Below are positions 14,608 to 59,255 of a stretch of DNA of 64,000 nt, piece after piece. A program made the position numbers and the translations under genes. The notes beneath the pieces were generated by a model. That model did no database searches, had not been told where the DNA came from, and was given only the letters and a program-made list of their open reading frames with translations. How positions within the stretch are numbered: position 1 is the first letter of the stretch; each line of letters opens with the position of its first letter. Source of the stretch: Mytilus trossulus (taxonomy: Eukaryota). The stretch covers positions 1,426,001 through 1,490,000 of the forward strand of contig NC_086374.1 of assembly GCF_036588685.1 (NCBI RefSeq), in the 5' to 3' direction.

Positions 14608-16285
14608 GGTAGGACATGTCAATAGGAATGGTATGACATATCAATAGGAATGGTATGACATATCAATAGGAATGGTATGACATATCAATAGGAATGGTAT
14701 GACATGTCAATAGGAATGGTATAACATATCAATAGCAATAGTATGACATGTCAATAGGAATGGTAGGAAATGTCAATAGCAATAGTAGGACATGTCAATA
14801 ACAATAGTATGACATATCAATAGGAATGGTAGAACATGTCAATAGGAATGGTAGAACATGTCAATAGGAATGGTAGGAAATGTCAATAGCAATAGAAAGA
14901 CATGTCAATAACAATAGTATGAAATATCAATAGGAATGGTAGAACATGTCAATAGGAATGGTAGAACATGTCAATAGCAATGGTAGAACATGTCAATAGC
15001 AATAGTATGGCATATCAATAGCAATGGTAGGACATGATATCAATAAGAATGGTAGGACATGATATCAATAAGAATGTTATGACATATCAATAGGAATGGT
15101 ATGACATATCAATAGCAATAGTATGACATGTCAATAGGAATGGTAGGAAATGTCAATAGCAATAGTAGGACATGTCGATAACAATAGTATGACATATCAA
15201 TAGGAATGGTAGGACATGATATCAATAGGAATGGTATGACATATCAGGTAGGACATGTCAATAGGAATGGTAGGAAATGTCAATAGCAATAGTATGACAT
15301 ATCAATAGCAATGGTAGGACATGTTAATAGGAATGGTATGACATATCAATAGGAATGGTAGGAAATGTTAATAGCAATAGTATGACATATCAATAGCAAT
15401 GGTAGAATATATCAATAGGAATAGTAGGACATATCAATAGGAATGGTAGGACATGTTAATAGGAATGGTATGACATATCAATAGGAATGGTAGGACATGT
15501 CAATAGGAATGGTAGGACATGTCAATAGGAATGGTAGGACATATCAATAGGAATGGTAGGACATGTCAATAGGAATGGTAGGACATGTCAATAGGAATGG
15601 TAGGACATATCAATAGCAATGGTAGGACATATCAATAGGAATGGTATGACATGTCAATAGGAATGGTAGGACATGTCAATAAGAATGGTAGGACATATCA
15701 ATAGGAATGGTATGACATGTCAATAGGAATGGTAGGACATGTCAATAGGAATGGTAGGACATATCAATAGGAATGGTAGAACATGTCAATATGAATGGTA
15801 TGACATATCAATAGGAATGGTATGACATGTCAATAGGAATGGTAGGACATGTCAATAGGAATGGTAGGACATATCAATAGGAATGGTAGGACATATCAAT
15901 AGCAATGGTAGGACATGTCAATAGGGATGGTAGGACATATCAATAGCAATGGTAGTACATGTCAATAGGAATGGTATGACATGTCAATAGGAATGGTATG
16001 ACATGTCAATAGGAATGGTAGGACATGTCAATAGCAATGGTAGTACATGTCAATAGCAATAGTATGACATATCAATAGGAATGGCAGGACATGTCAATAG
16101 GAATGGTAGAACATGTCAATAGGAATGGTAGGACATGTCAATAGGAATGGTAGAACATGTCAATAGGAATGGTATGACATATCAATAGGAATAGTAGGAC
16201 ATGTCAATATGAATGGTATGACATATCAATAGGAATGGTAGGACATATCAATAGGAATGGTATGACATATCAATAGGAATGGTAG
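14608..16285 (+). repeat. 22-bp satellite, block 2
   Basis: Same unit as block 1, ~76 copies. Confidence 0.97.
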
Positions 16286-21062: not shown

Positions 21063-22553
21063 GGTAGGAAATGTCAATAGGAATGGTAGGACATGTCAAT
21101 AGGAATGGTAGGACATATCAATAGGAATGGTATGACATATCAATAGGAATGGTAGGACATATCAATAGGAATGGTATGACATGTCAATAGGAATGGTATG
21201 ACATGTCAATAGGAATGGTATGACATATCAATAGGAATGGTAGGACATGTCAATAGGAATGGTAGAACATGTCAATAGGAATGGTATGACATATCAATAG
21301 GAATGGTAGAATATGTCAATATGAATGGTATGACATGTCAATAGGAATGGTAGGACATGTCAATAGGAATGGTAGGACATATCAATAGGAATGGTATGAC
21401 ATGTCAATAGGAATGGTATGACATGTCAATAGGAATGGTAGGACATATCAATAGGAATGGTATGACATGTCAATAGGAATGGTATGACATGTCAATAGGA
21501 ATGGTAGGACATATCAATAGGAATAGTAGGACATGTCAATAGGAATGGTATGACATGTCAATAGGAATGGTATGACATATCAATAGGAATGGTAGGACAT
21601 GTCAATAGGAATGGTAGGACATGTCAATAGGAATGGTAGGACATGTCAATAGGAATGGTAGGACATGTCAATAGGAATGGTAGGACATATCAATAGGAAT
21701 GGTATGACATGTCAATAGGAATGGTATGACATGTCAATAGGAATGGTATGACATATCAATAGGAATGGTAGGACATGTCAATAGGAATGGTAGAACATGT
21801 CAATAGGAATGGTAGGACATGTCAATAGGAATGGTAGAACATGTCAATAGGAATGGTATGACATATCAATAGGAATAGTAGGACATGTCAATATGAATGG
21901 TATGACATATCAATAGGAATGGTAGGACATATCAATAGGAATGGTATGACATATCAATAGGAATGGTAGAATATATCAATAGCAATGGTAGGACATGTCA
22001 ATAGGAATGGTATGACATATCAATAGGAATGGTAGAATATGTCAATATCAATGGTAGAATATATCAATAGCAATGGTAGGATATGTCAATATGAATGGTA
22101 TGACATATCAATAGCAATGGTAGGACATGTCAATAGGAATGGTATGACATATCAATAGGAATGGTAGAATATATCAATAGCAATGGTAGGACATGTCAAT
22201 AGGAATGGTATGACATATCAATAGGAATGGTAGAATATGTCAATAGCAATGGTAGAATATATCAATAGCAATGGTAGGACATGTCAATATGAATTGTATG
22301 ACATATCAATAGCAATGGTAGGACATGTCAATATGAATGGTATGACATATCAATAGGAATGGTAGGACATATCAATAGCAATGGTAGGACATGTCAATAG
22401 GAATGGTATGACATATCAATAGGAATGGTAGAATATATCAATAGCAATGGTAGGACATGTCAATATGAATGGTATGACATATCAATAGCAATGGTAGGAC
22501 ATGTCAATATGAATGGTATGACATGTCAATAGGAATGGTAGGAAATGTCAATA
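21063..22553 (+). repeat. 22-bp satellite, block 3
   Basis: Same unit, ~68 copies; ends ~180 bp before the exon at 22737. Confidence 0.97.
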
Positions 22554-23325
22554 TTTGCTTGACCTTCAGAATATTTCATACTTAAATTTACTGCTTATTG
22601 AGAGACTTCGTTGATTCATACTTAAGCATTAAATGTCCACACCCAGATTGTTAAAAGAAGAAGAAAGAAGTATATTTTAGAGCAATCAATAGTAGACTTG
22701 ATAAAATTAAAACTTCTTTTTTATTTATATTTTCAGATGACTAAGAGCGTACTCTGTGTAGAGGCAAAATGTCCTAGCCATAGTGAACTCCTGTTGAAGT
22801 ATGTAGTTATTGTTAACATTATCACTCAAACAAACAGTGATTATATTGCTTCTTTTGTAGTTTTATTTAGAATGTAAAATCGTTGAAAAGACTTAGCTGT
22901 AAAGTGCAATTTTTCAACACTTTACAACCCTATAAAACTTCAAAATCTGGGAAAATATGCAACGATTAACTAACGTTTTAAAGGGTAAAAAAGGGGGGGG
23001 GGGTTACCTTGATCTCATTATCGAGTGTTAAAACTATTTTTTTCTATAGTGTGTTCGCTCTTCCTTCTTTAATTATTTTTTACAAAATGTTTCTGTGAAT
23101 GCGTTATTTATCCAACAGCACCTATCATTCCTCTGTTATTTAAATGTTTTAACTATTTCAGTTTCTCGCCATGGCAATGGTTCAGTCCAAACGTAAGTAA
23201 AATCCAGACAAACTGCCACTTACCAGCAGACACGTGTGATGAAGATGCCACCTTTGGACCAACAGTAACCACTTCCACTTATATGACTACAGATGAACCG
23301 ATGACATCCACTGTGCCAACACAAA

Positions 23326-23594
23326 CAACTGTTATTCCTGGGATGGCTAACGATGCATTAACTGGGTCTGGTAATGGAGAGGACAGTAATACAGTAAGTA
23401 TATATTACACCTATTAACAGTTATTCCTGGGATGGCAAACAATGCGTTAACTGGGTCTGGTAACGGAGAGGACAGTAACACAGTAAGTAAATATTACACC
23501 TATTGACAGTCATTCCTGGGATGGCTAATGATGCATTAACTGGGTCTTGTAATGGAGAGGACAGTAACACAGTAAGTATATATTACACCTATTA
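23326..23594 (+). repeat. 3 x 89-bp tandem duplication of an exon 3' end plus its splice donor
   Basis: GTAAGT at 23394, 23483 and 23572 (period 89). Confidence 0.92.
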
Positions 23595-28265: not shown

Positions 28266-31200
28266 TCAGTATTTCATACAATCAGCACTGGAGTACTGAG
28301 TACACTGTGAGTTACTGGTCGATTCTGCATAACCTGTGATGTTACTTAATCCTGAACCTACAATAGAAAGAATTATTAAATGCTAAAACCTAGTAACATC
28401 AGAACCACGAATTCCATTTCAATATTTTCGTATTATTCTTAAACAAATGTTTATATGAGTAGTTATATTCTAATTATCGCTTCTTAACAAAATACTTCTT
28501 TGAGGGATTGTCTGTGTGATAAAATTTATATATTGATTGTAACGTTTGCTTTTTTTTGTTCAATGAAGAAGTTACTGTCCAGTTATTCAACAGCAAAAAC
28601 GTTAATGAAATCACCTCTAAATCATGTATACAACAACTACTAGTATAAGATTTCATATCCATTTTGACAATGTTTTTCCATTACACTGATTCTGAGAAGA
28701 CTACCGTTTTTTATTAGCAGGCAGTATCATATATAAATAAACAACTCTTCTAAACTTTTGGGAATGTAGAGCTGGGCTTTTTGAATGAAGCGTTTATAGT
28801 GAACTCTTTAAGTTGATAACTCCTCCTTCATTTGGTCTCTGTTGGAAAGTTGTCTCTTTGACAAAAATAGCACATCGTCTTATGTTTATGTCTTCCTTGC
28901 TTCTTTGCTATATGGAATTTTTTAATCTTGAAATCTATAAAGTGTTTTTATTCATTTACATAGATATAGGAATATGTGGTATATGTGCCAATGAGACAAG
29001 TAACAATTTATAAAAGTAAACCATTACATGTCTGATACAAGCTATTAATTGACCATTTATGAGAAAATCGTACAATCTACGAATCTTTAATTATTTACCT
29101 GTGATTAAGTTGTGTAGGTTACAATAGTTTGTTCCATAGTCCAGAACTGCATACCAAGTTTCTGACGTAGAGTAGCCCTGGAGTGAATAGAAAACATGTT
29201 AGGTTAAGTCAAAACTATTTAATCAGTAAATAGAGAGAAAAAATGTTAGACAGAACTAAGAAGCCTTGCAGTGGATAGACAACACGTTAGGATAAGTCAA
29301 AATTATGTAATCAGTATATATATATACAGTGAAAAATAGTTAGACAGAAGCTCAGTAACCCTATAGGGTTTAGAAAACACGTTAGGATAAGTCAACAATA
29401 TTAAACAAGCATGTATTAAAAAATAGTTAGACAGAAGCTCCTCTACATTAAGTTTATCTTTTTGTGTTTATTGAAAATATTTATGTCATTGCAAATCATA
29501 CAAGTTGTTTTGAAGCCTGTGGTGTTACTGATTACAAGTTTAAGTAAACATTACCTCAGTTTTACAATTCGTCCCTGCATCACTAAAGGTAAATGTCAGG
29601 TCATCTTTGTAATGTTTGCTCGGAGTTTCATGTATGGCTTTTAGTGTATTGGTAGATTCACTGACGAACTGTAAATAAAACAATAATTATACAATGCACA
29701 CGATTTACATTTAAAAAAATAATATATAAATAGTTATAGAATATAATATTGTTTCTAAAACCATTTAAACAAAAATAAAATACCCCCCCCCCCCCCCCCT
29801 TTCCCCAATTACCAGTCTTAAAGGGGCAATAGCTACGAGGTATAAAACAATCTAATATATTAGCTTTTTTTGCCCAATCATTCAAGAAATGTTAATAGTG
29901 GAATAATAATTTGCTTTTAGCAGTCAGTTTGGATTGGTTCAATTTTGTCAAAATAAGCTTAATATGAATTATTCACGTGCAATTGAATAATTGGACCTCA
30001 TTGAATCCTTATTCATATGAACTCTAATTTAACCCCTTATAGTTTAAGATGGATAACACGTGAATTGTATGTGTAAAGAAAAGAATGTCAACATTGAAAG
30101 TGAAACAACGGTAAATCATTTGATTGACTATAAATTCGATCCACACAAAAGTCATTCTTTTCACAGGTAAAAACGATGATAGACATTTATTTTTCATCTT
30201 TAATATGAAATCAAATTGACATAGAAAATCAAACAGCACGAGTTTGATTCATTTATTTACATATATACATTTTTATGTTTACATCGCTTATATTGTCATC
30301 GAATGACGTTAGAGGTCAACTCGACAGATATTTAGATGGCGTAAAGATTAGAATAGACACGAAACGAAGCTACGTATTTGTATGCCCGTGCCCTGTTTAT
30401 TGTTTATTTTAGATTTTTAATAGTTTGGATAAAATGTTTCACATTCTGTTCTTAATCAAATTTGAGAAATTTAATTAAAATCGGTGAACATAAATTTGGC
30501 AGCCAGCGCCTCTTTAAATTGACATACATATATGATAGTTTTATTCATAAAGTGACTTCAGGAACCATGTGGAATAGTAATGAAACGCTCCCTCCGTTAT
30601 ACTCCAACTCCAGGACCTGCTAATAAGTAAATGGTCCCTCAATAAATACGTTTAAATTTGAAGCCTACATTATTGCAACAAGTCTCTTAATTTTGAAAGA
30701 AAGGATACTATAGATACATATAAGTCTGCTTTATATTTGCACTGACATCTAGATAATCGCAAATTAAAAGGATCGTTTGAGTAGTTAATATGATTATAAC
30801 TTTCCATTATTAACTTTCAATTTTCAAGATGATGAAGCCTCATCCCAGCAGCTTCTGAAAATAAAGTAAATGTGAGCTAGATGATACGACATTTAAGGCT
30901 TGCATTGCCTATAATAAAATCATTAATAGAGGCTATGTCTTTCTACATAAATTTTAACTGCCATCTTGTTAGCATAAGCTACATCCTCATTATTCTTACT
31001 TTGTATAGACATTTCTCGCCTCCGTTCTTACAGTTGTCTGGCCCATTCCATAGTGTTATTTGGTTTTTCAGTTTTGTTTTTACATTACTACACGCCATGG
31101 AGGGAAACATCCTGAAAAAAGATTCATAAGCAGTGTGAGTGATAAAAACATAATAAAACAAGAATGTGTCTCCAGTACACGGATGCCCCATCCGCACTAT

Positions 31201-33353
31201 CATTTTCTATGTTCAGTGGACCCTGAAAATTGGGGGAAATCTCTAATTTGGCATTAAATTAGAAAGATCAAATCATAGGGAGCATGTGTATATTCATGCA
31301 GTTTCAAGCAGATTGGACTTCAACTTCATCAAAAACTACCTCGACAACAAACTTTAACCTGAAGCGGCACAGGCGGACGAACGGACGAGTGAAAGAACAG
31401 ACGCACGCTCAAACCAGAAAACCTAATGCCTATGAATGGGGCATAATAAATAGGGCATAAAGACTAGAGGCTGTAAAGAGCATGTATCGCTTACATAGAT
31501 CTATTGCATCATCGACGATATGCCAAAAAACAAGAGTGCACACGCTGAAATGTCTCGCCTTCTGTACTAATCATTGATATTATGTTGATAGTCCTAAGTA
31601 TAAAGATTTATTACAACTGTCACATAAACCTAACATTAATCAAGATAACTAAACAAAGACCAATGAACCTTGAAAATGAGGTCAAGGTCAGATGAACCAT
31701 GCCAGGCAGACATGTACAGCTAACAATGCTTCTATACAACATATATAGTTGACCTTTTACTTATAGTTGAAGAAAAATAGACCAAAACACAAAAACTTAA
31801 CACTGTGCAATGAACCGTGAAAATGAGGTCACGGTCAAATAAAACCTGCAGGACTGACATAAAGATCATAAAATATTTCCATACACCAAATATAGTTGAC
31901 CTATGGCATATAGTATAGATAAAAAGACCAAAACTCAAAAACTTAACTTTGACCACTGAACCATGAAAATGAGGTCAAGGTCACATGACATCTGCCCGCT
32001 AGACATGTACACCTTACAATCATTACATACAACAAATATAGTAGACCTGTTGCATTTAGTATGAGAAAAACACACCAAAACACAAAAACTTAACTATAAC
32101 CACTGAACCATGAAAATGAGGTCAAGGTCAGATGACACCTGCCAGTTGGACATGTACACCTTACAGTCCTTCCATACACCAAATATACAAGCCCTATTGC
32201 TTATAGTATCTGAGATATGGACTTGACCACCAAAACTTAACCTTGTTCACTGATCCATGAAATGAGGTCTAGGTCGTGAAAACTGTCTGACAGACATGAG
32301 GACCTTGCAAGGTACGCACATATAAAATATAGTTATCCTATTACTTATAATAAGAAAGAATTCAACATTACAAATAATCTGAACTTTTTTTTCAAGTGGT
32401 CACTGAACCATGAAAATGAGGCCAAGGCCATTGGACATGTGACTGACGGAAACTTTGTAACATGAAGCATCCAAGTCTTCCACCTTCTAAAATATAAAGC
32501 TTTTAAGAAGTGAGCTAACGCCGCCGTTTGAATCCCAAATCTCATATTCCGAAGTCAAACCAGGTACTCTGGTAGAGCAAGCATTTCAGTTTGTACAATC
32601 AGCTAGTACATGTATGAAACGCGCGTCTGGCGCAAATACTAAATTTCAATCCTGGTATCTGGGTCGATGCAACCGCTGGTGGAGTTTAGTCTGAGTAGTC
32701 AACTTCTATGTTGACATGAATTGTCATTGATACGGTCATAATTATAAATTAATGAGTTTATTTATGAACTGTTTACAAAACTTTGATTTTTTAAAATACT
32801 AGGGCTTTTCTTCCTAATGACTATTTATATATAAATATATATAAATATAGTAGACATTCAGCAACCACGAATCACACTATACATCGGAGTAGTCGTAAGG
32901 ATAGGCCCTAATAACTTTAAAATTGCACAGAAACCTGGTACACAGATGATGTTTTAAACTTTCAATCGTCCTCCGAATATTTATAAATTATTTAATACGA
33001 AATATCCCCACAGCAACCTCTTTGAAGGAAACTAATTTGAGTTATCTCTCTTTTTGTTCGTCTGAAATGGTTATGTAAATTTTTAAAAAAATCAAGCTGA
33101 AAGAGAAACAAGTTACAAGTTGTCACAACTATTCAATAATAAAGAGTAGAGTTATATCTTACCAATTAACTCTGCATGAAGCATGTAATGGGTTTGAAGC
33201 AGCAAATCCAACAAAAAGTCCAAGACCGGCTAAAACTACGACTGTTAATACGACCATTGTTATTTTACAACACAATGGTATTTTCTTGCAACACGAACCG
33301 CAGGATTTAGGCGAATTATCAGTTCCAAGCTTCCGGTATGGTTTACTGCTCAT
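28266..33353 (-). CDS. Paralog A: uncharacterised 195-aa type II membrane protein with an 8-Cys ectodomain; exons 33353-33163, 31111-31000, 29668-29555, 29177-29099, 28357-28266
   Basis: Canonical GT/AG, open frame: MSSKPYRKLGTDNSPKSCGSCCKKIPLCCKITMVVLTVVVLAGLGLFVGFAASNPLHASCRVNW|MFPSMACSNVKTKLKNQITLWNGPDNCKNGGEKCLYK|FVSESTNTLKAIHETPSKHYKDDLTFTFSDAGTNCKTE|GYSTSETWYAVLDYGTNYCNLHNLITG|SGLSNITGYAESTSNSQCTQYSSADCMKY*. Exon sizes 112/114/79/92 are shared with paralogs B and C. Confidence 0.93.
29170..29440 (-). repeat. Three degenerate ~90-100-bp repeats copying the exon-4 acceptor region of paralog A
   Basis: Recurring AGAAAACA(T/C)GTTAGG(T/A)TAAGTCAA...GTTAGACAGAA, each beside GTAGCCCTG / GAAGCCTTG / GTAACCCTA. 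Confidence 0.75.
29822..30513. mobile_element. Non-autonomous Kolobok-like DNA transposon
   Basis: TTAA|AGGGGCAATAGCT ... AGCCAGCGCCTCT|TTAA. Confidence 0.7.
31157..31450 (+). mobile_element. Short Helentron-associated (HINE-like) element
   Basis: AACAAGAATGTGTC start, (ACGG)n-like microsatellite, terminal ATGCC..GGGGCATAA hairpin. Confidence 0.6.
31529..32545 (+). mobile_element. HINE-like element with ~6 internal ~147-bp satellite-like repeats
   Basis: AACAAGAG start; TGAACCATGAAAATGAGGTCAAGGTCA recurs at ~31664, 31811, 31958, 32104, 32251 and 32404. Confidence 0.75.
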
Positions 33354-39585: not shown

Positions 39586-42500
39586 ATGAATAGTTATATT
39601 TCAGTAGCTCTTGTTGTAATCTTTGCTGGATGTTCAATTGCCTATCCAACCCATGCTTCCTGCAAAATACAATGGTAAGAATATATGTTTCAACTATACT
39701 TTTCTTTTTATAAGTTCCTAGAGGACCATATGAATTTGAAAAAACGCAGCGTATACGTCAACGAAGGCATGTATTTGAGTTTTCACGTACGTACGTTTTC
39801 AAATAGCTACTGGAAAATTCGATCTCTATTCATTTAAAGATATATTTCAGATTTTTTTTTAATTGATTTTGCATAAATTATTTGCAATATTCAGATGAAG
39901 TTCAATGCATTAAAAAATATCATAAATACCGCCCACTTTTACTTCTCTTTTAATTCTGACAATGGCTGGCTTATAGTAAGTCAAAAGTTTACATATATTA
40001 CACATCTAAAATAAAATTCCAAAAGTAACACGTTGTTCAAGTTCTTATCGTTGGATTTCAAATATATTCTCTTATCAAATTATTTTATTGCCGCAGACAC
40101 TATGCTATGACAAAATGGCTAGTTCTATTCTGAGCTCTTGTTGAAAAGATCTTTAAAATTTTAGCTCTTTTTGCCTTTTAGCAATGCAAACTATTATTAT
40201 CGCTGACTCAGCTTGTGTCCGCCTCCCATTTTTCGTCGTCGAAATTTCTTCTTTTAAAATACTTGCTAAAGAACATAGGACAAATATATACCAAGCTAAA
40301 ACTTACCCTTACTGTGTCTGGTATAAAGATTATAGGTTTATCGTTTTGTGTGTACTGTTATTAGACGTATCATTGTTTTCGTCATGACATTGTCGGGTTT
40401 TTTTCCTACTTCAATTATTTGAATATCACGATCAGGTGATGGAGGGGGAGGGGGATAAGACTGAAGGCCAAGACAAAAATTATTTGATCACGTTCACATT
40501 CATCTGTGACATAGATAATCATAACGGCCAATAAAATCATGATAATATTAGTACACAAAATACATAAGCTATATTGAGCTTTTTGTCGTCTAAGGACCGA
40601 TTAAAAGACGTATATTTCTAAGTTTCATGAACTTCAAAACATTCAATGGGATAACTTCACTGTTTTCAAACAGACGCAATTTTTGAAAATTTCTTATATT
40701 TAAAAGCAGTTTTGAACGTTTGTGAGCTACGGCTTAAAAAATGGATAAAGTCATGTATGAATTAATACCAAACAAATCTCCTTATATCAAAAAATCAAAA
40801 AGATGAATAATTTCGTATGTGACGTCATTTATTTTAATTGCGTTGACGCCTGGACTGATTCGGGTGTGTCTATGCTGTATTGAACTTGGCATCATGTATT
40901 CGGGTTTAGTTTTCTGTAATAAGTTAATACTTCAGTTTCATTATGAATATATCTTTCATATTCATTTGTTAAAATTTACTGTTTGCAATAGCATGAATCG
41001 TTCTATATAATAATGGGGTTCTTATCCCGTGCATAAAAACAATGCCGTATTTGGCAAAAGCTTTTCAACTTTTGATCTTCAGTGCTGTACAACTTTGTAC
41101 TTTCTTTTATATCTGGGCGTTATGTATTCGGGTTTATCATATATTTAGTACAAAATACATCTATTTTGTATATCTAATACAGGTTCGTTTTTCCAGTCTG
41201 TATCACCTACCCTGTATCGCATACCCCGTATCGCATAGCTAAACCCGTATCGCATACCCCGTATCGCATGGTAAAACCCGTATCGCATACCTTTTTTTTT
41301 TTTTTTTTTTTTTACATAAATTCAGTTTTTATTGGGTTTTTTTGCTGAAATTTTTTTTCCTATAAATAGATAAAATTTACTGTTTGCAATAGCATGAATT
41401 GTTCTATATAATAAGAATGTTCTTATCCCGGGCATACAAACAATGCCGTATTTGGCAAAACCTTTTCAACTTTTGATCTTCATTGCTGTACAACTTTGTA
41501 CTTTTTTCACTTTCGATGTTATCTATTAATCATGTTTTTCTTTGTCTATGTTCTCCTATTTATTTGTATTGTAGTCCTGTAATATTATGTTGTCATTTCA
41601 ATGTTATATTTAACTTTGCCATTAAAGTGCGAGATTTGGCATGCCATAACACCAGGTTCAACCCACCACTTTTATTCCCCTTTAAAGGTGTCCTGTACTA
41701 AGTCAGGAAGATGGCCATTGTTATAATATTGTTCGTTTCTGTGTGTTTTGCATTTTAACGTTGAGTCGTTTGTGTTTTCTCTTATTTTTGAGATATTGAG
41801 ATAAGACGTGGCACGGTACTTGTCTATCCCAAATTCATGTATTTGGTTTTGATGCTATATTTGTTATTCTCGTGGTGTTTTGTCTGTTGCTTGGTCCGTT
41901 TCTGTGTGTGTTGCGTTTCGGTGTTGTATCGTTGTTCTCCTCTTATATTTAATGCGTTTCCCTCGGTTTTAGTTTGTTACCCCGATTTTGTTTTTTGTCC
42001 ATGGATTTATGTGTTTTGAACAGCGGTATACTACTGTTGCCTTTATTTATTGAATACTTTCTAAATCTGTGCAGGTATAGTTTAGGTTATTACATACGTT
42101 TGGAAGAACTTTTGTAAATTCAGAGCATAACATTAAATTGTATGTTCGGTGTTAATGCAATTTGTATTTGTTATTTTTTAAGGACATTTGGGATCAGTTG
42201 TGATATGGTCAAGGACAAAATCAAGACCCAAATATCTACATGGAAAACAGCAGATAACTGTCCAAATGGAGCAGGCGAAAAATGTCTGTATACAGTACGT
42301 ATTGTCAGCAGTTTAATTTGTCTATTATAGACAAGTAAAAGGTTACTGCAAAACGCTCATTTACTTTATGAATTTCAATTTAAAAGTATGTTTTATACAT
42401 TTTAACATATCTGTTATGAATCAGACATTTTTGAATCGTTGGAATTAATGGATTCGAATTTTGATCTTTCTTTATCTTTTTACATTTACTTAATATATAT

Positions 42501-45500
42501 ATATATGCGTAATTTTGCAAGGAACTGAAGTAAATGAAACTGTTACCAGTTCCTTGGTCTAAACGACCCTTCTTACTGCATCGTATAAAATGATAGGTAT
42601 AGTTTAGCAGTCTGAAATGGTAAAAACAATATAAATCCTAGTAATTTAGCGCAGTAATAAGAAATCATGTTTAAAAGATACGTTGTAACTTGATTGTGAC
42701 TATATAGTATACCAACTTAAGAATCACAGACACATTAGCGATAAGTACTGTACATTTTTGCACTCTCAACAAAAAAAGCAGTCATTCCTACAATTGTTCA
42801 GAAATTGACCCCTATCTACATGGTTATTTTCTTTTACATGATCCAGGGGTCGAAATTAGAACTAGTCTGGTGATCCAACAACAACATAATAAGACTAGCC
42901 TCGTTATGGTCTTGTATCATGCAGCACCTTCATTATAGTACTTTTAACTTGATTGGTTATTTATTTCACTTGATGTTTCAGTTTGTGAGTGAAACAGATA
43001 CAACCATAACAGCCAAACACGCGACACCAGTTAAACACTACATGGACGATTTGACCTTCACCTTTACTGCAAGTAACAGCATGTGCAATGTCAAGGTAAG
43101 TTCAAGGGTTATTCGGGTATATACTTCTCTTTATACTTTTGTTATATAAAAAAATCTGATCGAATTTTTTTCATGGTAAATTAATACAATTCCGAAAGCG
43201 TCGTTAGTCAGAATCGTCTATTGTGCGCGATCCGGTACCTATAGCTGTTACGTGTTTTGTAAGACACTGGAATGTCAAAATATTATATACTAGTATATTG
43301 TTGATCAACAGTTAAATTGACCATATTTTTTACTTTAATGTAGAAGTGAATAAAAAAGATTTACTCCAATCTAAGTTAACAAAGCATTGTCCCTAGAAAT
43401 CAAACTAGACTAACTTGACAGTGTGTAACGAACAATGACTAACAATCCAGATAAAAGGAGTAAATGTTGATGTCTTTAGCAATTATGATGAGTGACACTA
43501 ACCGTGAAATGGATATCTTTTGTTAATCGTGTATCCTCGGTGGCTTACTTGTCATTCACAACGCGACGTGTCATAAGTTGAGCAGGGGGTATTCGCCTTC
43601 CACATCACACGGGTCTACACCCGAACTTTTATTGGAATCCAAATGCTCCTTTTGGCTTGATTTATTAATGTCATTTATACAGACTATGTAGACCTCGAGC
43701 TTCACTTATGAGACATTATTTGTCGATATAAACACCTGGTGCAGTAAAATTGGTAGTGTGAATATGTTTAGTTTATTATTGCTTTATATTTTTTTATGTT
43801 CCATTTGTTCAATAAAGTAGGTATGGTACTGGTTAATACATTTTGATAATTTTTTTTAATGTTTTAATTTGTAGGGTTTCTCCACATCAGAAACATGGTA
43901 TGCTTACCTTGACTACAGCACAAACTATTGTAATCTATCTATTTATTTACATTACTGTATTAATTGTAGGGTTACTCCACATCAGAAACATGGTATGCTT
44001 ACCTTGACTACAGCACTAACTATTGTAACCTCAACAACCTTATCACAGGTATGGCATTACCTAATCATAGGTAGAACTACTATATAAACTTGTATACTTT
44101 AATCTTTATCACAGGTATGTCATTACCTAATCATAGGTAGAACTACTATATTAACGTGTATACTTTAACCTTTATCACAGGTATGTCATTACCTAATCAT
44201 AGGTAGAACTACTATATTAACGTGTATACTTTAATCTTTATCACAGGTATGTCATTACCTAATCATAGGTAGAACTACTATATTAACGTGTATACTTTAA
44301 TCTTTATCACAGGTATGTCATTACCTAATCATAGGTAGAACTACTATATTAACGTGTATACTTTAATCTTTATCACAGGTATGTCATTACCTAATCATAG
44401 GTAGAACTACTATATTAACGTGTATACTTTAATCTTTATCACAGGTATGTCATTACCTAATCATAGGTAGAACTACTATATTAACGTGTATACTTTAATC
44501 TTTATCACAGGTATGTCATTACCTAATCATAGGTAGAACTACTATATTAACGTGTATACTTTAATCTTTATCACAGGTATGTCATTACCTAATCATAGGT
44601 AGAACTACTATATTAACGTGTATACTTTAATCTTTATCACAGGTATGTCATTACCTAATCATAGGTAGAACTACTATATTAACGTGTATACTTTAATCTT
44701 TATCACAGGTATGTCATTACCTAATCATAGGTAGAACTACTATATTAACGTGTATACTTTAATCTTTATCACAGGTATGTCATTACCTAATCATAGGTAG
44801 AACTACTATATTAACGTGTATACTTTAATCTTTATCACAGGTATGTCATTACCTAATCATAGGTAGAACTACTATATTAACGTGTATACTTTAATCTTTA
44901 TCACAGGTATGTCATTACCTAATCATAGGTAGAACTACTATATTAACGTGTATACTTTAATCTTTATCACAGGTATGTCATTACCTAATCATAGGTAGAA
45001 CTACTATATTAACGTGTATACTTTAATCTTTATCACAGGTATGTCATTACCTAATCATAGGTAGAACTACTATATTAACGTGTATACTTTAATCTTTATC
45101 ACAGGTATGTCATTACCTAATCATAGGTAGAACTACTATATTAACGTGTATACTTTAATCTTTATCACAGGTATGTCATTACCTAATCATAGGTAGAACT
45201 ACTATATTAACTTGTATACTTTAATCTTTATCACATGTTTGCAAATTATGTAGTTACTCCTTTGTCCATAATAAATACAAGCATGATAAAAACAGAAACA
45301 TTAGCATGATAAAAGACAGAAACACTAGCATGATAAAAAAAAACCAGAAACACTTACATGATAAAAAAAATCCCCAAAACACTTGCATGATAATAAAAAA
45401 CCATAACACTTGCATGACAAAAAAAAATTAATCCAGAAACATTTGCATGATAAAAACAGAAACATTAGCATGATTAAAGACAGAAACACTAGCATGAAAA

Positions 45501-45952
45501 TACAACAACTCTCGAATAAAAACAGGAACTCACACTAGCATGTTTAAAAACGGGAACACGAGCACTGAACTCGATTGAATAATTTTCAATTATAGATATC
45601 AATATTCTACATTTTTGTCAACTCTATGGAAACAACGCCGCATCTAAATTTTGCTAAAGCTCTCCTGTATTTACCAACGAACTTTTAGTTCTATTCTGAT
45701 TATTTAATCTTTTCATTTTGTTTATAAGAAAATCTAGAAGGGTACTATGCAGTTAAACATAAAAAAAAAACTTGACATGTGACAGGGTAAACATAGGTCT
45801 TGCTGGATAATTATGATTCGCAAGATGTTATAGAAAATTGAATGTCTATTTTTCTTTCAGGTTCTGGACTTGACAAGGTTAATGCATACAAGGAGGTCAC
45901 GAGCGATGCTGTTTGTACACAATATTCCAGCAAAGATTGCGATAAATATTAA
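39586..45952 (+). CDS. Paralog B: uncharacterised secreted 161-aa Cys-rich protein; exons 39586-39674, 42183-42294, 42982-43095, 43970-44048, 45861-45952
   Basis: MNSYISVALVVIFAGCSIAYPTHASCKIQW|TFGISCDMVKDKIKTQISTWKTADNCPNGAGEKCLYT|FVSETDTTITAKHATPVKHYMDDLTFTFTASNSMCNVK|GYSTSETWYAYLDYSTNYCNLNNLITG|SGLDKVNAYKEVTSDAVCTQYSSKDCDKY*. Signal peptide; canonical splice sites. Confidence 0.94.
41690..42050. repeat. Interspersed repeat ending GAACAGCGGTATACTACTGTTGCCTTTATTT; opposite-strand copies at ~47598, 51796, 53305, 54893, 56971 and a same-strand copy at ~57280-57330
   Basis: AAATAAAGGCAACAGTAGTATACCGCTGTTC motif seen at least 7 times. Confidence 0.8.
43871..43935 (+). other. Truncated duplicate of paralog B exon 4 with its own acceptor
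   Basis: TTTGTAG|GGTTTCTCCACATCAGAAACATGGTATGCTTACCTTGACTACAGCACAAACTATTGTAA, 95 bp upstream of the complete exon. Confidence 0.9.
44049..45236 (+). repeat. 18 x 66-bp near-perfect tandem array starting at the exon-4 donor of paralog B
   Basis: Unit GTATGTCATTACCTAATCATAGGTAGAACTACTATATTAACGTGTATACTTTAATCTTTATCACAG; GTATG at 44049, 44115, 44181 ... 45171. Confidence 0.97.
45280..45560 (+). repeat. Degenerate ~22-28-bp minisatellite (GCATGATAAAAACAGAAACAC)
   Basis: GCATGA recurs about 10 times with A-rich spacers. Confidence 0.75.
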
Positions 45953-49965: not shown

Positions 49966-52900
49966 ATGAATAGTTATATTTCAGTAGCTCTTGTTGTTAT
50001 CTTTGCTGGATGTTCTATTGCATATCCAATCCATGCATCCTGTAAAATACAATGGTAAGAATATGTAATTTTTTTTAAATATATTTTACTTTTTATCTTT
50101 TTTAAGATGGCATCTTTTTCCGATACACAGACATTTTGTTATTTGACTTTTGGTGTTTTGTTGCTTTTCATAGTGATACAGATTATAACACAACGTTGAC
50201 TGCTGAACACATTGTTTGACATATTTACCTAGCATGTATGTTTGTTTTGTTCAATCGTCGTTGTCAATATAATAGAAGTTTATGCGACTGTCATCAAGTG
50301 AGAGGTTAATCGAGCTATAAAACCGGGTTTAATCCACTATTTTCTACATAAGAAAATACATGTTCAAAGTAAGGCATATGCCAGTTGTTATAATTTTGTT
50401 TGATGTGTTTAAAAAAGCGATAATGTCTATTTTATTGGGACATTTAAGTCATACTCAGGTTTGCAACGTTTAAATGAAGTTTAACTGTCATAATTTCCAA
50501 AAATTCTCTAACACCACGAAAGCATGGATTGTTTATCATTTCTGATCGATAGAAATATTATCCACAGTTATAGCTCGCGTTTCGTAAACCATCATGTTAC
50601 AGTATGCATAAAACGAGCACAATAATATCTACAACAAATTAGGTCTTGTTCCTCGGAACTCTGTTTCTTATCTCGCAAGGTCGTCGGATTATAAGTAGGA
50701 TTTGTCTTATAAATAAACTCATCATAGATACCAGGACTATTTTTAGTATATATGCCAGACGCGCGTTTCGTCTACAAAAGACTCATCAGTGACGCTCGAA
50801 TCCAAAAAAGTTTAAAAGGCCAAACAAATTACGAAGTTGAAAAGCATTGAGAACCACAATTCCTATAAGTTTTGCCAAATACAGCTAAGGAAATCTATGC
50901 CTGAGGTAGAAAAGCCTTAGTATTTCAAATAATTAAAACAAATTGTAAACAGTAAATTTATAATAAATATAACCATATCGCTGACAATTCACGTCAGCAC
51001 AAAAGTGCTGACTACTGGACTAAACGTAACCACACTCATTTAGTACATCGTACCACAAACTAGATCTCCTGTTCAAGAACTTTTTTTTCTTATTTTGCAA
51101 GGTCGTCGGATTACAAGGATATTGTTTATAAAACGTACCAAATATTCCATTATCTTAACAAGGAATATTTATACCTTGTATTTTACTCGAACATTGATTT
51201 AAAAGGGTTCAGATTTTAAAAGTATATCTAATTAATGGGTCCTATATTTAGATTATATAGTACTTTTTAATAATTTCGAATTCAAATGCAATGCAACATT
51301 TAGATTCTAAGATCTATTCTAACAGACCTAGCTTGAAAATATTCCGTTCTTAAGATTCAAATTGCCCTTTAATTAAAATCATTTGATTTACAGGATATTA
51401 CCATATTTAAGACGGAAAATATTGTATAAGTTTGTTAATTCAGAAGACCATTTAATAGTATATTCTCCATTATCTCTGAAAGAAACTTCCCAATTAAATT
51501 ATGAAAACAGTTTATATTCTGTAATTTGCTAGGACATTTGGAATCACCTGTGACATGGTAAAGGAAAAAATCAAGAGCCAGATCTCCACCTGGTCTACAG
51601 CAGATAACTGTCCAAATGGAGCAGGAGAAAAATGTCTGTATACAGTAAGTATTGTCAGTGATTAGAATCGAAGGACAAGTATTTTACCGCAATGAGTTCA
51701 TAAACATGTACTTAATAAATTGTAATTTAATCCGTTAGGTATGTTCTATACATTTTGAGGTCAGTATGTTGGGGTGAATATATATTAATCAAGATGAGGC
51801 AACAGTAGTATAACACTATTCAAAAGTCATAAATCGATAGAGAGAAAACAGATCCGAGTTATTAACAAAAACCAAGGAAACACATAAACTGTAACTGTAT
51901 AAACATCTTTAGCTCTGGTATATTCATTGTTTGTTTTATGTAACAATTGTACTAAAATGAAACAAAATGGGTCGATACGCTAAAAATCTGAAAAAAGGTG
52001 CATTGCATGTAGAGTTTGTGAATCAGCAGCTCAATTTATTTTATGGACTTCACCTTTTTTAATTTGCCTTGAAGTTCAGTTTTGTTTTTGGTACTTTATT
52101 CAACAGAATGTGTGTTTAATTTATATATCTTAAAACACGTATTAATTACCTTTATCCCCCGCGCTGACTGTCGGTTATAATATCGAATTGACCGCCATTG
52201 ATCTAATGATGCTTGACTAATCTGTACTAAATGAATACTATAGTTGTTATCCATTCGGTCGATGTTTCTGAGTTTTGATTTTGCCATTTGATTTGGGTTT
52301 CTACTATTTTCAATTTTCCTCGGAGTTCGGTATTTTTTGTTATTTAATTTTTGTTTGTAACGACATGGACGCTATCACTGTTCTGTTCTCTAATTGGACG
52401 AAAATGTAATATCTGATGTTTTAACATTCGTTTGTAAGAAAAGCCAGTGCAAACCATATCAATGCAAATTATTTTTACAACAAGTGTCTGTATCGTATTT
52501 CTATTTAGTGCCCCTTAAACCCCCTTGATATAACTATCTAATATAAATAGTAATCTGTTAAAAAATATCAACACAAAAAAACGTTTAAGAAGTTCAAAGA
52601 AATATAATGTTTAAAAGCACAAAAACAAAGGTCTATAATACAGAACAGACAGTAGGGTCAACTCATTGCTATCATATAATAAGTTTTTCCAGTTATACTG
52701 TCGGCATCTTGTTTATATTGGCATAAAAAACCTCGTTGACCATACGTGGTTAAGACATATTCCATATATATTAATATAAATGAACTCATCAAATATACCA
52801 GGCTTATGATAGTGTACGTCAGACGCGTGATTCGTCTACGAATCATCACAGTTATTGAGTTTATACTTTTAAATCATTATGTTCATATACAATGGTGTTT

Positions 52901-55365
52901 TCGCATAAATAAGTGCATATATTTATATATCATAAATTATTTGAATTGGTTTGAATAAAATTAAATATAGCCAGTTACTACAAAAGAAAATGCCTGTAAC
53001 AATTCAGGAATATGGCAGTTACTTGTTAACCATTCGTTTGGTGTGTTAGAGCTTTTGATTTAGTTTGCCATTGTTTTATGGTCTGTCCGTTTTGAATTTC
53101 CCTCAGAGTTCGGTATTTTTGTTATCTTACTTTTTGAAATTTTAGTTTGTTGGTGAAACAAGTACAACTATCACAGCAAAACACTCGACACCAGTGAAGC
53201 ATTACCTTGATGATTTGACCTTCACGTTGACCGCAAGTAATAGTATGTGCAATGTAAAGGTAAGTCCAAGAGACACACAAATGAAATAGTGTAATATACT
53301 ACTTAAATAAAGGCAACTGTAGTATACTGCTGTTCAAAACTCATAAATCCATGGACAAAAAACAAAATCGGGGTAACAAACTAAAACTGAGGGAAATGCA
53401 TTTAACATTTTGCTATATTTAACACTAAAGCATTGATTTAATAAATCTTGATAATTTAATTTTGGATGTAACGCGTCTCCTGATTGGCTGACGTTATTTT
53501 GTTATGAGCTTAAAGACATAATTCAGTCATGTGACCGTGACGTCATCAACGTTTTTTTCATGTTTTTTTACGGTTTAAAATGGAATTTAGAATTAAATTA
53601 TAAGAAATGACTGTAATATTTTTCTGTCTATTCGAAATAACATAAAAAATGTGGTGCACACTGTTAAATAACCCGCTACGCGCGTTATTCAGAGTGCACC
53701 ACATTTTTTATGTTATTTCTTCATAGACAGAAAAAATATTACAGTCATTCCTTAATTGATCTAAGAAATGATATGCAAGGTGTATAAATGTAGAGTATTT
53801 CATAGGGAAAAAATATACAAAACTTTTTGAAATGTCAGAGAAAAAGTCAGAACTAAGTTTTTTGGTTTAAGGCTTGTCACAAATAAACTCATTATCGATA
53901 CAAGGACTAAATTTTGTATATACGCCAGACGCGCGTGAATATCTTATCTTAATGATATGTTTGCATCCTTTTTATGTCGAGATCAAATTCCAATCGTAAA
54001 TCACTTGAGGTCATGTCGATGGTAGATTGGATGGTCACCAGACCTAAACGAGAGACGAAATATATAAACGGGACGTATGAATTTATACATCAAAACAAAA
54101 ATGTCAATTTCATGTCAGAACATAAAAACAACAAAAAACATACGCTTATGAAATGTTGTTACTTTATGGCAAGTTCGAGCATTGTTAGTTGATTCAAAGC
54201 TTTTTCGGCAATTACTATTTAATATATAGAATGGTATTAATCAAATTCGAGACTGTGAGTCAATTTAATGGGCATGAATTGCTAGGTAGTTGGAAAACAT
54301 ATCTTTATATCTAGGTATAAACATACACATGATATGGATACCTGATGTCGCTTATAAGGTTTCGATTATTGTGTCCATAAGGTATCTTTATCCATGATAT
54401 CTGTAAATATATTGCTTACTTAGATCTATTTATATAAATTACTGTTTAAAGATCTTTAAATTGTAGGGTTACTCCACATCAGAAACATGGTATGCTCACC
54501 TTGACTACAGCACAAACTATTGTAACCTCAACAACCTGATCACAGGTATGTTCATATCCTAATGTAAATTCGTATGAACAGACTTGAATTTCACTTATTA
54601 CACACGTTGCAAGTGTATAACAAAAACTACTATGTAATTTCAAAAAGGAAAAAACACATTATCATCGAAAACAGAACGAGTGAAACAAAATGACATTGTC
54701 CTGACTTGGTACATACTTTTCCCGAAGGGTATTGTGGGTTAAACCTGGTCTTATATCTAGCTTTAAAACCTCCTTGTTGTATGTCAGAAAATGCAGATTT
54801 TTTTAATCGTATGAAATGTGTTCCTGCGAGGTAAATGACAACAAAGGGTAGAAAGGAATGTCAGTATTCGAGCCTTAGTATCAGATTTGTTTAAATAAAG
54901 GCAACAGTAGTATACCACTGTTCAAATCTCATAAATCCATGGACAAGAAACAAAATCGGGGTAACAAACTAAAACTGAGGGAAACGCATTAAATATAAGA
55001 GGAGAACAACGACACAACACTAAAATGTAACACACACAGAAACGGATCAAGCATCAGACAAAATCCCACGAGAATAACGAATATAACATCAAAACCAATT
55101 ACATGAATTTGTGATAGACAAGTACCGTGATACGTCTTATCGCAATGTGAATTTACACTAAAAATAAGAGAAAACAAACGACGCAACGTTAAAATGTAAC
55201 ACACAGAAACGAACTAATGTATCCTTAATGAGTTATGGTATCAAAGAATTCATGTTTCTTACTTTTATTTAAGGATCCGGACTGGACAAGGTTAACGGAT
55301 ACACCGAGGTTACCAGTGATAGTGTGTGCACACAATATTCCAGCAAAAATTGCGAAAAATATTAA
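49966..55365 (+). CDS. Paralog C: secreted 161-aa Cys-rich protein, close duplicate of B; exons 49966-50054, 51533-51644, 53146-53259, 54467-54545, 55274-55365
   Basis: MNSYISVALVVIFAGCSIAYPIHASCKIQW|TFGITCDMVKEKIKSQISTWSTADNCPNGAGEKCLYT|FVGETSTTITAKHSTPVKHYLDDLTFTLTASNSMCNVK|GYSTSETWYAHLDYSTNYCNLNNLITG|SGLDKVNGYTEVTSDSVCTQYSSKNCEKY*. Confidence 0.94.
50751..50797 (-). ncRNA. Minimal type I hammerhead ribozyme with intact core, inside a ~310-bp Penelope/retrozyme-type repeat (~50710-51020)
   Basis: Minus strand: GAGCGTCA-CTGATGA-GTC(TTTTGTA)GAC-GAAA-CGCGCG-TC-TGGCATA. CUGAUGA and GAAA boxes, stem II, palindromic stem III, GUC cleavage triplet. Confidence 0.85.
53430..53757. mobile_element. 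Hairpin-bearing non-autonomous element, same architecture as 10156-10560 but in opposite orientation
   Basis: ~70-bp inverted arms spanning 53601-53754 centred on CCGCTACGCG (minus strand GCGTAGC); CTGATTGG and TGACGTCA motifs in the body. Confidence 0.75.
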
Positions 55366-58320: not shown

Positions 58321-58900
58321 CAAGTCATAGACAAAAACACAACTAAGTCATAGACAATAACACAACCAAGTCATAGACAAAAACACAACCAAGTCATAGA
58401 CAATAACACAACCAAGCCATAGACAAAAACACAACCAAGTCATAGACAATAACACAACCAAGTCATAGACAAAAACACAACCAAGTCATAGACAATAACA
58501 CAACCAAGTCATAGACAAAAACACAACCAAGTCATAGACAATAACACAACCAAGTCATAGACAAAAACACAACCAAGTCATAGACAATAACACAACCAAG
58601 CCATAGACAAAAACACAACCAAGTCATAGACAATAACACAACCAAGTCATAGACAAAAACACAACCAAGTCATAGACAATAACACAACCAAGTCATAGAC
58701 AATAACACAACCAAGTCATAGACAAAAACACAACCAAGTCATAGACAATAACACAACCAAGTCAAAGACAATAACACAACCAAGTCATAGACAATAACAC
58801 AACCACGTCATAGACAAAAACACAACCAAGTCATAGACAATAACACAACCAAGTCATAGACAATAACACAACCAAGTCATAGACAAAAACACAAACAAGT
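58321..58900 (+). repeat. 23-bp minisatellite (CAAGTCATAGACAA(A/T)AACACAAC), ~25 copies
   Basis: Period 23; A and T variants mostly alternate. Confidence 0.96.
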
Positions 58901-58941
58901 CCACTATTACATAAATTTTAAGCCTGGTACCTTTTCTGACA

Positions 58942-59111: not shown

Positions 59112-59255
59112 NNNNNNNNNNNNNNNNNNNNNNNNNNNNNNNNNNNNNNNNNNNNNNNNNNNNNNNNNNNNNNNNNNNNNNNNNNNNNNNNNNNNNNNNN
59201 NNNNNNNNNNNNNNNNNNNNNNNNNNNNNNNNNNNNNNNNNNNNNNNNNNNNNNN
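59112..59255. other. Assembly gap (144 N)
   Basis: Run of N. Confidence 0.99.

What the first reader, a model, noticed from the sequence alone, without database searches (positions are those of the whole stretch)
44049..45236. Array of back-to-back 66-nt mini-introns: a tandem-repeat-built recursive-splicing ladder
Seen: each unit starts GTATGT (the first GTATGG), has a branch-like TTAAC about 28 nt before its end and a pyrimidine-rich tract, and ends CAG. That makes 17 zero-length-exon CAG|GTATGT junctions directly after exon 4 of an intact gene. The unit end copies the last ~10 nt of the exon, and the final unit ends CAT, showing a microhomology origin. Retaining any unit gives a stop (MSLPNHR*). 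The true donor is weaker than its 17 decoys, and paralog C has GTATGT at this position. Known: AG|GT ratchet points mediate recursive splicing. Inference: the array is removed stepwise or tunes productive splicing by copy number, and it models intron multiplication by tandem duplication.
Basis: partly seen in the sequence, partly recalled or inferred. Interest (0 to 1): 0.72.

Follow-up and report, generated by a model that had tools for sequence, protein, structure and literature searches.

The report
Splice-donor minisatellite in mussel gene
In a likely mussel gene, a 66-base piece covering the end of an exon and its splice signal is repeated 18 times; it is a real repeat of a known kind that appears young and variable in length, and it is likely cut out in one piece from the first signal rather than step by step.

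Summary
The array is real: 18 x 66 nt, 17 internal CAG|GTATGT junctions, units 3-17 identical, with a 66-nt loop in a DNA run. It is a minisatellite spanning the exon-4 donor, like human F7, CBS, LMNB2 and ABCA7 and lancelet 'mirages'. AG|GT follows from duplicating across a CAG|GT donor; an 8-nt exon/intron microhomology marks both ends. Paralog C and one relative carry one unit, another relative about two. In that relative a 95-nt repeat spanning the ACCEPTOR of the same exon looks expanded about 11-19-fold instead (contig depth, rough). The unit's acceptor scores below 13 of 15 real acceptors, unit 1 lacks the branch-like TTAAC, and the intron would be about 690 nt without the extra units. 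So a main-route recursive ladder is unlikely, though untested: RNA contigs show only the mature exon 4-exon 5 junction, which both routes give, from an animal of unknown array length. Mirage papers already note AG/GT signals, normal splicing and an intron-gain model. This scan noted such repeats before, in this genome and two others. New member of a known kind; a useful natural allelic series.

The parts
44049..45236 (+). Minisatellite, 18 x 66 nt, filling the 5' part of intron 4 of gene B; repeat register 44040-45235 (9 exon + 57 intron bases)
   Evidence: self-loop in DNA run X1
44049..44114 (+). Unit 1: authentic donor CAG|GTATGG; three private letters (+6, +38, +42) that can serve as a barcode for recursive intermediates; lacks the TTAAC
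44181..45170 (+). Units 3-17, identical (recent expansion or homogenisation)
45171..45236 (+). Unit 18, ends CAT; with its downstream flank it resembles the start of intron 4 of paralog C
43970..44048 (+). Exon 4 of gene B (79 nt); its last 9 bases belong to the repeat register
   Evidence: GT..AG joint from exon 3 in RNA contigs
43875..43969 (+). 95-nt duplicate of the start of exon 4 with its own acceptor; two acceptors here, apparently expanded about 11-19-fold in organism B
   Evidence: 125-nt (95+30) loop contigs in runs X2, X3, X4
45861..45952 (+). Coding part of exon 5 of gene B; conserved C-terminus with Cys150 and Cys158, lost if a later donor is used
39586..39674 (+). Coding part of exon 1 of gene B (hydrophobic N-terminus, likely signal peptide, judged by eye)
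42183..42294 (+). Exon 2 of gene B
42982..43095 (+). Exon 3 of gene B; weak DUF1499 match below Pfam's cut-off
54546..54675 (+). Start of intron 4 of paralog C: single-copy counterpart of the unit and its downstream flank, donor CAG|GTATGT

Best explanation
This is a minisatellite whose 66-base unit spans the donor of exon 4, likely born by slippage or unequal exchange at an 8-base match between the exon end and the intron, and the intron is likely removed mainly in one step from the first donor, with the 17 extra junctions acting as mostly silent pseudo-sites. Shown: the array, its boundary-spanning register, the microhomology, one unit in paralog C. Shown roughly, by contig depth: different copy numbers in relatives. 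Inferred: the exon ends in CAG, so each copy must recreate CAG|GT, and no selection for recursive sites is needed; exon definition across the 79-nt exon 4 would pick the nearest donor, as in F7; a few per cent of leak to the second donor, giving a 139-aa truncated product, or occasional use of an internal junction would fit the precedents.
For: Microhomology: 8 identical bases before the boundary at both ends, then GT. Single-copy state: C's intron start aligns with unit 18 plus flank, score 52, reached by 1 of 2000 shuffles and 1 of 1939 random window segments; in run X6 one 144-nt contig runs from exon 4 through one unit into the flank (only 23 letters on the exon side, under the tool's 31-letter bridging rule). 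Lability: 66-nt loop depth 352 vs 27.5-30 in X1, 9.4 vs 4.8-5.4 in X4. Units 3-17 are identical while X1's two haplotype contigs differ at 11 of 156, 19 of 232 and 12 of 265 letters nearby. By-product: 6 of 13 real donors examined have AG before GT (6 of 11 listed, plus two printed donors of A without AG). Weak acceptor: 3.6 bits against a leave-one-out median of 8.7; 13 of 15 real acceptors score higher. Without 17 units the intron is 690 nt, like 728 in C and 741 in A. The same accident recurs: the 95-nt acceptor repeat of this exon, an 89-nt x3 donor repeat at 23327-23594 and degenerate acceptor repeats at exon 4 of paralog A. RNA contigs of X14 show B-type exons 2-3-4 joined at GT..AG and exon 4 running into exon-5 letters. 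Precedent: only the first donor is used in F7, LMNB2 and PDGF, the first three in CBS and 6-16 (PMC1557585); mirages with AG/GT signals splice normally (PMC3087553).
Against: No nascent RNA or lariat data were available, and the mature junction is the same by either route. X14 is another sample with other alleles, so its array length is unknown; its B-like exon-5 loose end is only 10-12 letters (13 of 14 like B, 12 of 14 like C, by eye). The unit is a formally complete small intron: 12 pyrimidines in 17 positions, within the real range of 8-14, top 8% of AG sites, branch-like A at -27 in units 2-18. A duplicated AG|GT was spliced at 6-16% in human cells, and about 60 nt was given as the minimum intron length (PMC3265369). 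Recursive lariats occur in short introns too, as a minor route (PMC10156609). The acceptor matrix rests on 15 sites, many paralogous. The F7 results are from mammalian cells.
Confidence: 0.72

Rival explanations
1. The array is a working recursive ladder: most transcripts first splice exon 4 to an internal CAG, which regenerates a donor, and the intron is removed in two or more steps.
For: 17 formal acceptor-donor junctions; each unit also resembles an RS-exon, a short exon flanked by a downstream donor (PMC8605326 introduction); branch-like A at -27 and a T-rich tract; de novo splicing of duplicated AG|GT at 6-16% (PMC3265369).
Against: Known ratchet points are conserved and lie mostly in long introns; here the junction is absent from paralog C and apparently from X6 and the intron is 1,812 nt. 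Unit 1 lacks the TTAAC. The unit acceptor is weaker than 13 of 15 real ones, including this intron's own (8.7 bits). In introns under 1,000 nt conventional lariats prevail.
Confidence: 0.08
2. The array is a length-dependent splicing burden or dial, as in ABCA7: more units divert more transcripts to later donors or to exon skipping and lower the output of gene B, with paralog C buffering the loss.
For: ABCA7: a donor-containing 25-bp VNTR whose length tracks downstream exon skipping and lower expression (PMC5954066, passages). Any later donor truncates the conserved C-terminus: last 30 residues 22 of 30 identical to clam P0001 and 18 of 30 to ray P0002. Copy number differs among relatives.
Against: In ABCA7, retention of one unit was about 2% and did not change with length. 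In F7, later pseudo-sites do not compete even when strengthened. No genotype-expression data were available here, and nothing shows selection on length.
Confidence: 0.15
3. The array is an assembly artefact or is much shorter in the animal.
For: Fifteen units are identical; no long read spanning the array was seen; X1 may be the assembled sample.
Against: X1's loop depth is about 12-16 times single-contig depth; edge units carry private letters; the head-to-tail junction, with the unit-2 variant, also stands in runs X2 and X4 of another organism.
Confidence: 0.03

Closest known systems
Human F7 IVS7 37-bp VNTR, with CBS intron 13 (15-20 units), 6-16 intron 2 (25 pseudo-sites), LMNB2 (100 bp x 10-15) and PDGF intron 4 (81 bp x 16-18). 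PMC1557585; seen: abstract, Introduction, Discussion
   Same: First unit spans the exon-intron boundary; the donor is reiterated down the intron; similar unit sizes and copy numbers; polymorphic length.
   Different: The F7 exon ends UGG, so no AG|GT arises there; here every junction is CAG|GT with a branch-like motif. I did not check whether the other four have AG|GT. Use of the first donor was shown in those genes and only inferred here.
Lancelet 'mirage' minisatellites (Adh3, globins BflGb6 and BflGb9). PMC3087553; seen: passages, supplements not opened
   Same: Tandem copies of an exon-intron boundary in a marine invertebrate; many carry AG/GT signals; length differs between haplotypes; inner units homogenised, edge units not; regular splicing; both 5' and 3' boundaries can be hit; an intron-gain model already proposed.
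   Different: There the two boundary types are shown in different genes; here both boundaries of one 79-nt exon carry their own repeat, and relatives seem to have expanded opposite sides.
ABCA7 intron 18 25-bp VNTR. PMC5954066; seen: passages
   Same: The unit holds the donor; retention of one unit gives a premature stop.
   Different: A length effect on exon skipping and expression is measured there and unknown here.
Recursive-splicing ratchet points and RS-exons. PMC8605326 (outline, Introduction); PMC10156609 (outline, one Results section)
   Same: Juxtaposed acceptor and donor, followed at about 50-70 nt by another donor.
   Different: Ratchet points are conserved, mostly in long introns, and proven by intermediates or lariats; these are young, not conserved, in a 1.8-kb intron, and untested.
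Intron birth by duplication of an AG|GT (ATP2A1). PMC3265369; seen: abstract, one Results section, Discussion
   Same: A tandem duplication across AG|GT makes a GT...AG segment above the roughly 60-nt minimum.
   Different: There the AG|GT is exonic and a new exon junction results; here it is an old donor shared with paralogs A and C, and no new junction appears.

Membership tests
Boundary-spanning minisatellite (F7 type, 'mirage') | Head-to-tail unit that spans an exon-intron boundary | tested here: met
   Register 44040-44105 = 9 exon + 57 intron bases
Boundary-spanning minisatellite (F7 type, 'mirage') | The splice site is reiterated inside the intron | tested here: met
   17 further CAG|GTATGT
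Boundary-spanning minisatellite (F7 type, 'mirage') | Unstable copy number | tested here: met
   18 in the window, about 2 loop-depth equivalents in X4, one unit in X6 and paralog C; between organisms, by rough depth; variation within one species not shown
Boundary-spanning minisatellite (F7 type, 'mirage') | Inner units homogenised, edge units divergent | tested here: met
   Units 3-17 identical; units 1, 2, 18 differ
Boundary-spanning minisatellite (F7 type, 'mirage') | Regular mRNA made from the authentic (first) site | tested here: inconclusive
   Exon 4 runs into exon-5 letters in RNA contigs of X14, but that sample's array length is unknown and the route is invisible in mature RNA
Recursive-splicing ratchet points | Juxtaposed acceptor and donor | tested here: met
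   Formally present 17 times; acceptor 3.6 bits, below 13 of 15 real ones
Recursive-splicing ratchet points | Conserved site across related species | tested here: not met
   No internal junction in paralog C; one unit ending CAT in X6
Recursive-splicing ratchet points | Long host intron (typical, not obligatory) | tested here: not met
   1,812 nt; 690 nt with one unit
Recursive-splicing ratchet points | Splicing intermediates, recursive lariats or sawtooth coverage | not testable with these tools
   Only assembled contigs were served
Intron gain by tandem duplication | A new exon-exon junction at a formerly exonic AG|GT | tested here: not met
   The intron position is shared by A, B and C, and exon 4 still meets exon 5
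DUF1499 (host protein) | Pfam PF07386 score above the curated cut-off of 22.6 bits | tested here: not met
   Exon 3: 12.7 bits; full-length homologs P0001 and P0002: 17.6 and 16.9 bits; a lead only

The most novel reading that the evidence does not exclude
A VNTR has built, from one donor, a run of complete 66-nt mini-introns that the spliceosome really uses: a substantial share of transcripts shed the array through internal CAG|GT junctions, so the gene tolerates any copy number because each unit is self-removing. With the acceptor side of the same exon expanded in a relative, this would be a natural series showing recursive splice sites arising and multiplying within a genus.
Probability: 0.1. 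Interest if true: 0.62.

Novelty: new member of a known kind. Interest (0 to 1): 0.27.

Why it matters
As it most likely stands, it is one more boundary-spanning minisatellite, showing how tolerant splice-site choice is of 17 decoy donors. Its use is practical: close relatives seem to carry 1, about 2-3 and 18 donor units and up to about 19 acceptor units around one small exon, and unit 1 has private letters that would mark a recursive intermediate in a single read. That allows a clean test, in an invertebrate, of first-donor choice against recursive use. If recursion proved to be a main route, it would show that recursive sites can arise in one mutational step and multiply without selection.

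Tried and rejected
No whole genome is held, so no genome-wide count of such repeats or of intron sizes was possible. The run search listed no holder on record as RNA: 'no RNA holder listed'. RNA contigs of X14 and X24 had no cover over unit 1; contigs drop rare forms, so this is not used as evidence. X3 had no contig on the 66-nt unit, and X6 none over 43907-43945; not used. Seven of 24 listed runs were laid (X1 twice, X2, X3, X4, X6, X14, X24); X2-X4 are one study; both outputs cut some rows. RNA folding of exon end plus four units: z = -1.46, 16 of 200 shuffles as good, so no masking structure is claimed. The idea that the unit is an old copy of the exon-4 tail: without the last 10 bases, 67 of 2000 shuffles scored as high; not pursued. 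Protein searches: none with the exon-3 query, two with the exon-2 query, 39 unnamed hits, no usable Atlas hit; no function found. The minimum intron size in bivalves was not found in two searches (listings only). Searches for a VNTR used as recursive sites gave no such report; in PMC13196383 the four passages shown do not link repeat units to recursive sites. The library lacks most subscription papers, and no supplements were opened. No human-type splice-strength model was run; my recollection that the +6 G and +6 T donors score about equally comes from no call. No look-alike stretch among the scan's other genomes.

Full report
Observation. The array is as described: 18 units of 66 nt at 44049-45236, 17 internal CAG|GTATGT junctions, first unit GTATGG, last unit ending CAT. 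Tandem Repeats Finder gives period 66, 18.1 copies, 99% matches, in register from 44040, so the true unit is 9 exon bases plus 57 intron bases. Units 3-17 are identical; unit 1 differs at +6, +38 and +42, unit 2 at +55, unit 18 at +42 and +66. One correction matters: the +38 change removes the branch-like TTAAC from unit 1, the first rung of the proposed ladder.

Host gene. Gene B has five exons and encodes 161 residues; intron 4 is 44049-45860, 1,812 nt. Paralogs A (minus strand) and C share the intron position, with 741 and 728 nt; B with a single unit would have 690. Homologs exist in a freshwater clam and a ray (94 and 90 of 161 identical); DUF1499 matches stay under the cut-off. Use of any later donor ends the protein at 139 residues and drops a conserved C-terminus with two cysteines. 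That the animal is a mussel comes from earlier AI notes on this genome and fits the clam homolog and the mollusc and marine holders; I did not establish it myself.

Origin. Eight bases before the exon end recur just before the end of unit 18, each followed one base later by GT. The start of C's intron 4 aligns with unit 18 and its downstream flank, score 52, reached by 1 of 2000 shuffles and 1 of 1939 random window segments. In DNA run X6 (organism C) one contig passes from exon 4 through one unit into the flank at flat depth; it has only 23 letters on the exon side, under the tool's bridging rule. The ancestral state is therefore likely one unit, duplicated by slippage or unequal exchange at the microhomology. 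Since the exon ends in CAG, every new copy must carry CAG|GT. This is common chance material: 6 of 13 real donors examined have AG before GT.

Reality and lability. Run X1, possibly the assembled sample, has a 96-nt self-loop at depth 352, against 27.5-30 for flanking contigs and 19-24 for haplotype contigs nearby, a ratio of about 12-16. The tool warns that depth is no copy number, so I use it only as a rough guide. In organism B the 66-nt junction exists (X2, X4) but at about twice single depth (9.4 against 4.8-5.4 in X4). There the 95-nt repeat over the acceptor of the same exon forms a 125-nt contig that begins and ends on the same 30 letters, at 11, 16 and 19 times other contigs in X2, X3 and X4 (one study; in X3 the only comparison contig is C-type). 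So both ends of one 79-nt exon sit in repeats, and relatives seem to have expanded opposite sides. The window holds two more boundary repeats, at 23327-23594 and at exon 4 of paralog A.

Are the units good introns? A matrix from 15 real acceptors in the window scores the unit acceptor 3.6 bits; the leave-one-out median is 8.7, 13 of 15 score higher, and 476 of 6029 other AG sites score as high. By pyrimidine count the unit is within the real range (12 of 17; real 8-14). A YTRAY motif lies at a fitting distance before 1366 of 6030 AG sites. The unit is thus a possible but weak acceptor. The matrix is small and partly paralogous. The first donor differs from the others only at +6, one more mismatch to the MAG/guragu consensus quoted in PMC1557585. 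No stable fold stands out.

RNA. Two runs guessed to be RNA show GT..AG joints for exons 2-3-4 that the DNA runs lack. In X14, labelled with the same organism as X1 but another sample, the main contig is B-type (2 differences each in exons 2 and 3; C-type contigs have 16-20), and exon 4 runs on into exon-5 letters, C-type in one contig and B-like in two short ends. This shows normal mature mRNA. It cannot tell one-step from stepwise removal, and that sample's array length is unknown.

Mechanism. Most likely the 79-nt exon is defined with its nearest donor and the intron leaves in one piece, with a small leak to donor 2 (inferred; 0.72). In F7, identical downstream pseudo-sites are functional but unused, even when strengthened; LMNB2 and PDGF use only the first site, CBS and 6-16 the first three (PMC1557585; abstract, Introduction and Discussion read). 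Lancelet mirages often carry AG/GT signals, vary in length, homogenise inner units and splice normally, and the authors already propose them as a route to intron gain (PMC3087553, passages). Against this reading: a duplicated AG|GT was spliced at 6-16% in human cells, with about 60 nt named as the minimum (PMC3265369), and recursive lariats occur in short introns as a minor route (PMC10156609, one section). Occasional use of an internal junction is therefore plausible, perhaps one chance in four by my judgement; a main-route ladder gets 0.08, because true ratchet points are conserved and mostly in long introns (PMC8605326, Introduction). A length-dependent burden as in ABCA7 gets 0.15; there, exon skipping tracked length but single-unit retention (about 2%) did not (PMC5954066, passages).

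Novelty. It meets four of five features of boundary-spanning minisatellites, with the fifth inconclusive, and fails two features of ratchet points, with the decisive one untestable here. I found no report of a VNTR used as recursive sites (limited library; supplements not opened). Earlier notes of this scan describe the same kind of repeat three times in this genome and in two other genomes; they gave me the mirage lead, which I then read, and are not counted as support. Verdict: new member of a known kind, interest 0.27. The two-sided, lineage-swapped expansion and the barcode letters in unit 1 make it a handy test case.

Noticed in passing
window 43875-43969; runs X2, X3, X4: A 95-nt duplicate spans the acceptor of exon 4. 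In three runs of organism B (one study) it forms a 125-nt loop contig at depth 80.8, 125.6 and 98.7 against 4.8-7.9 for other contigs, with a head-to-tail junction in X4. The upstream copy's acceptor scores higher than the real one (14.2 against 9.3 bits) and would shift the frame if used.
   Followed up: partly
window 23327-23594: A second donor-spanning repeat, 89 nt x 3, at the end of an exon (23162-23393) of an unrelated gene; each copy reads ACA|GTAAGT, with no AG before the GT.
   Followed up: partly
window 29187-29395, minus strand: Degenerate 88-nt repeats upstream of exon 4 of paralog A hold two acceptor-like copies (29361, 29265) before the real one (29178): the same exon boundary looks duplicated independently.
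   Followed up: partly
window 28269-33240 (A, minus), 39586-45952 (B), 49966-55365 (C): Three paralogs of a roughly 160-aa, cysteine-containing, probably secreted protein with homologs in a freshwater clam and a ray; weak DUF1499 match; function not found. Extra exon-4 flanks in X1 and X6 hint at more copies or divergent haplotypes.
   Followed up: partly
window 45273-45504: Degenerate 24-29-nt repeats follow the array inside the same intron.
   Followed up: no
window 5845-7704, 14608-16285, 21063-22553: Three arrays of the same 22-nt satellite (about 84, 76 and 68 copies), roughly 6-9 kb apart; a frame near 18170 looks by eye like retrotransposon reverse transcriptase, so the satellite may sit in terminal repeats.
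   Followed up: no
window 58321-58901 and 59112-59255: A 23-nt x 25 tandem repeat, and a run of N.
   Followed up: no
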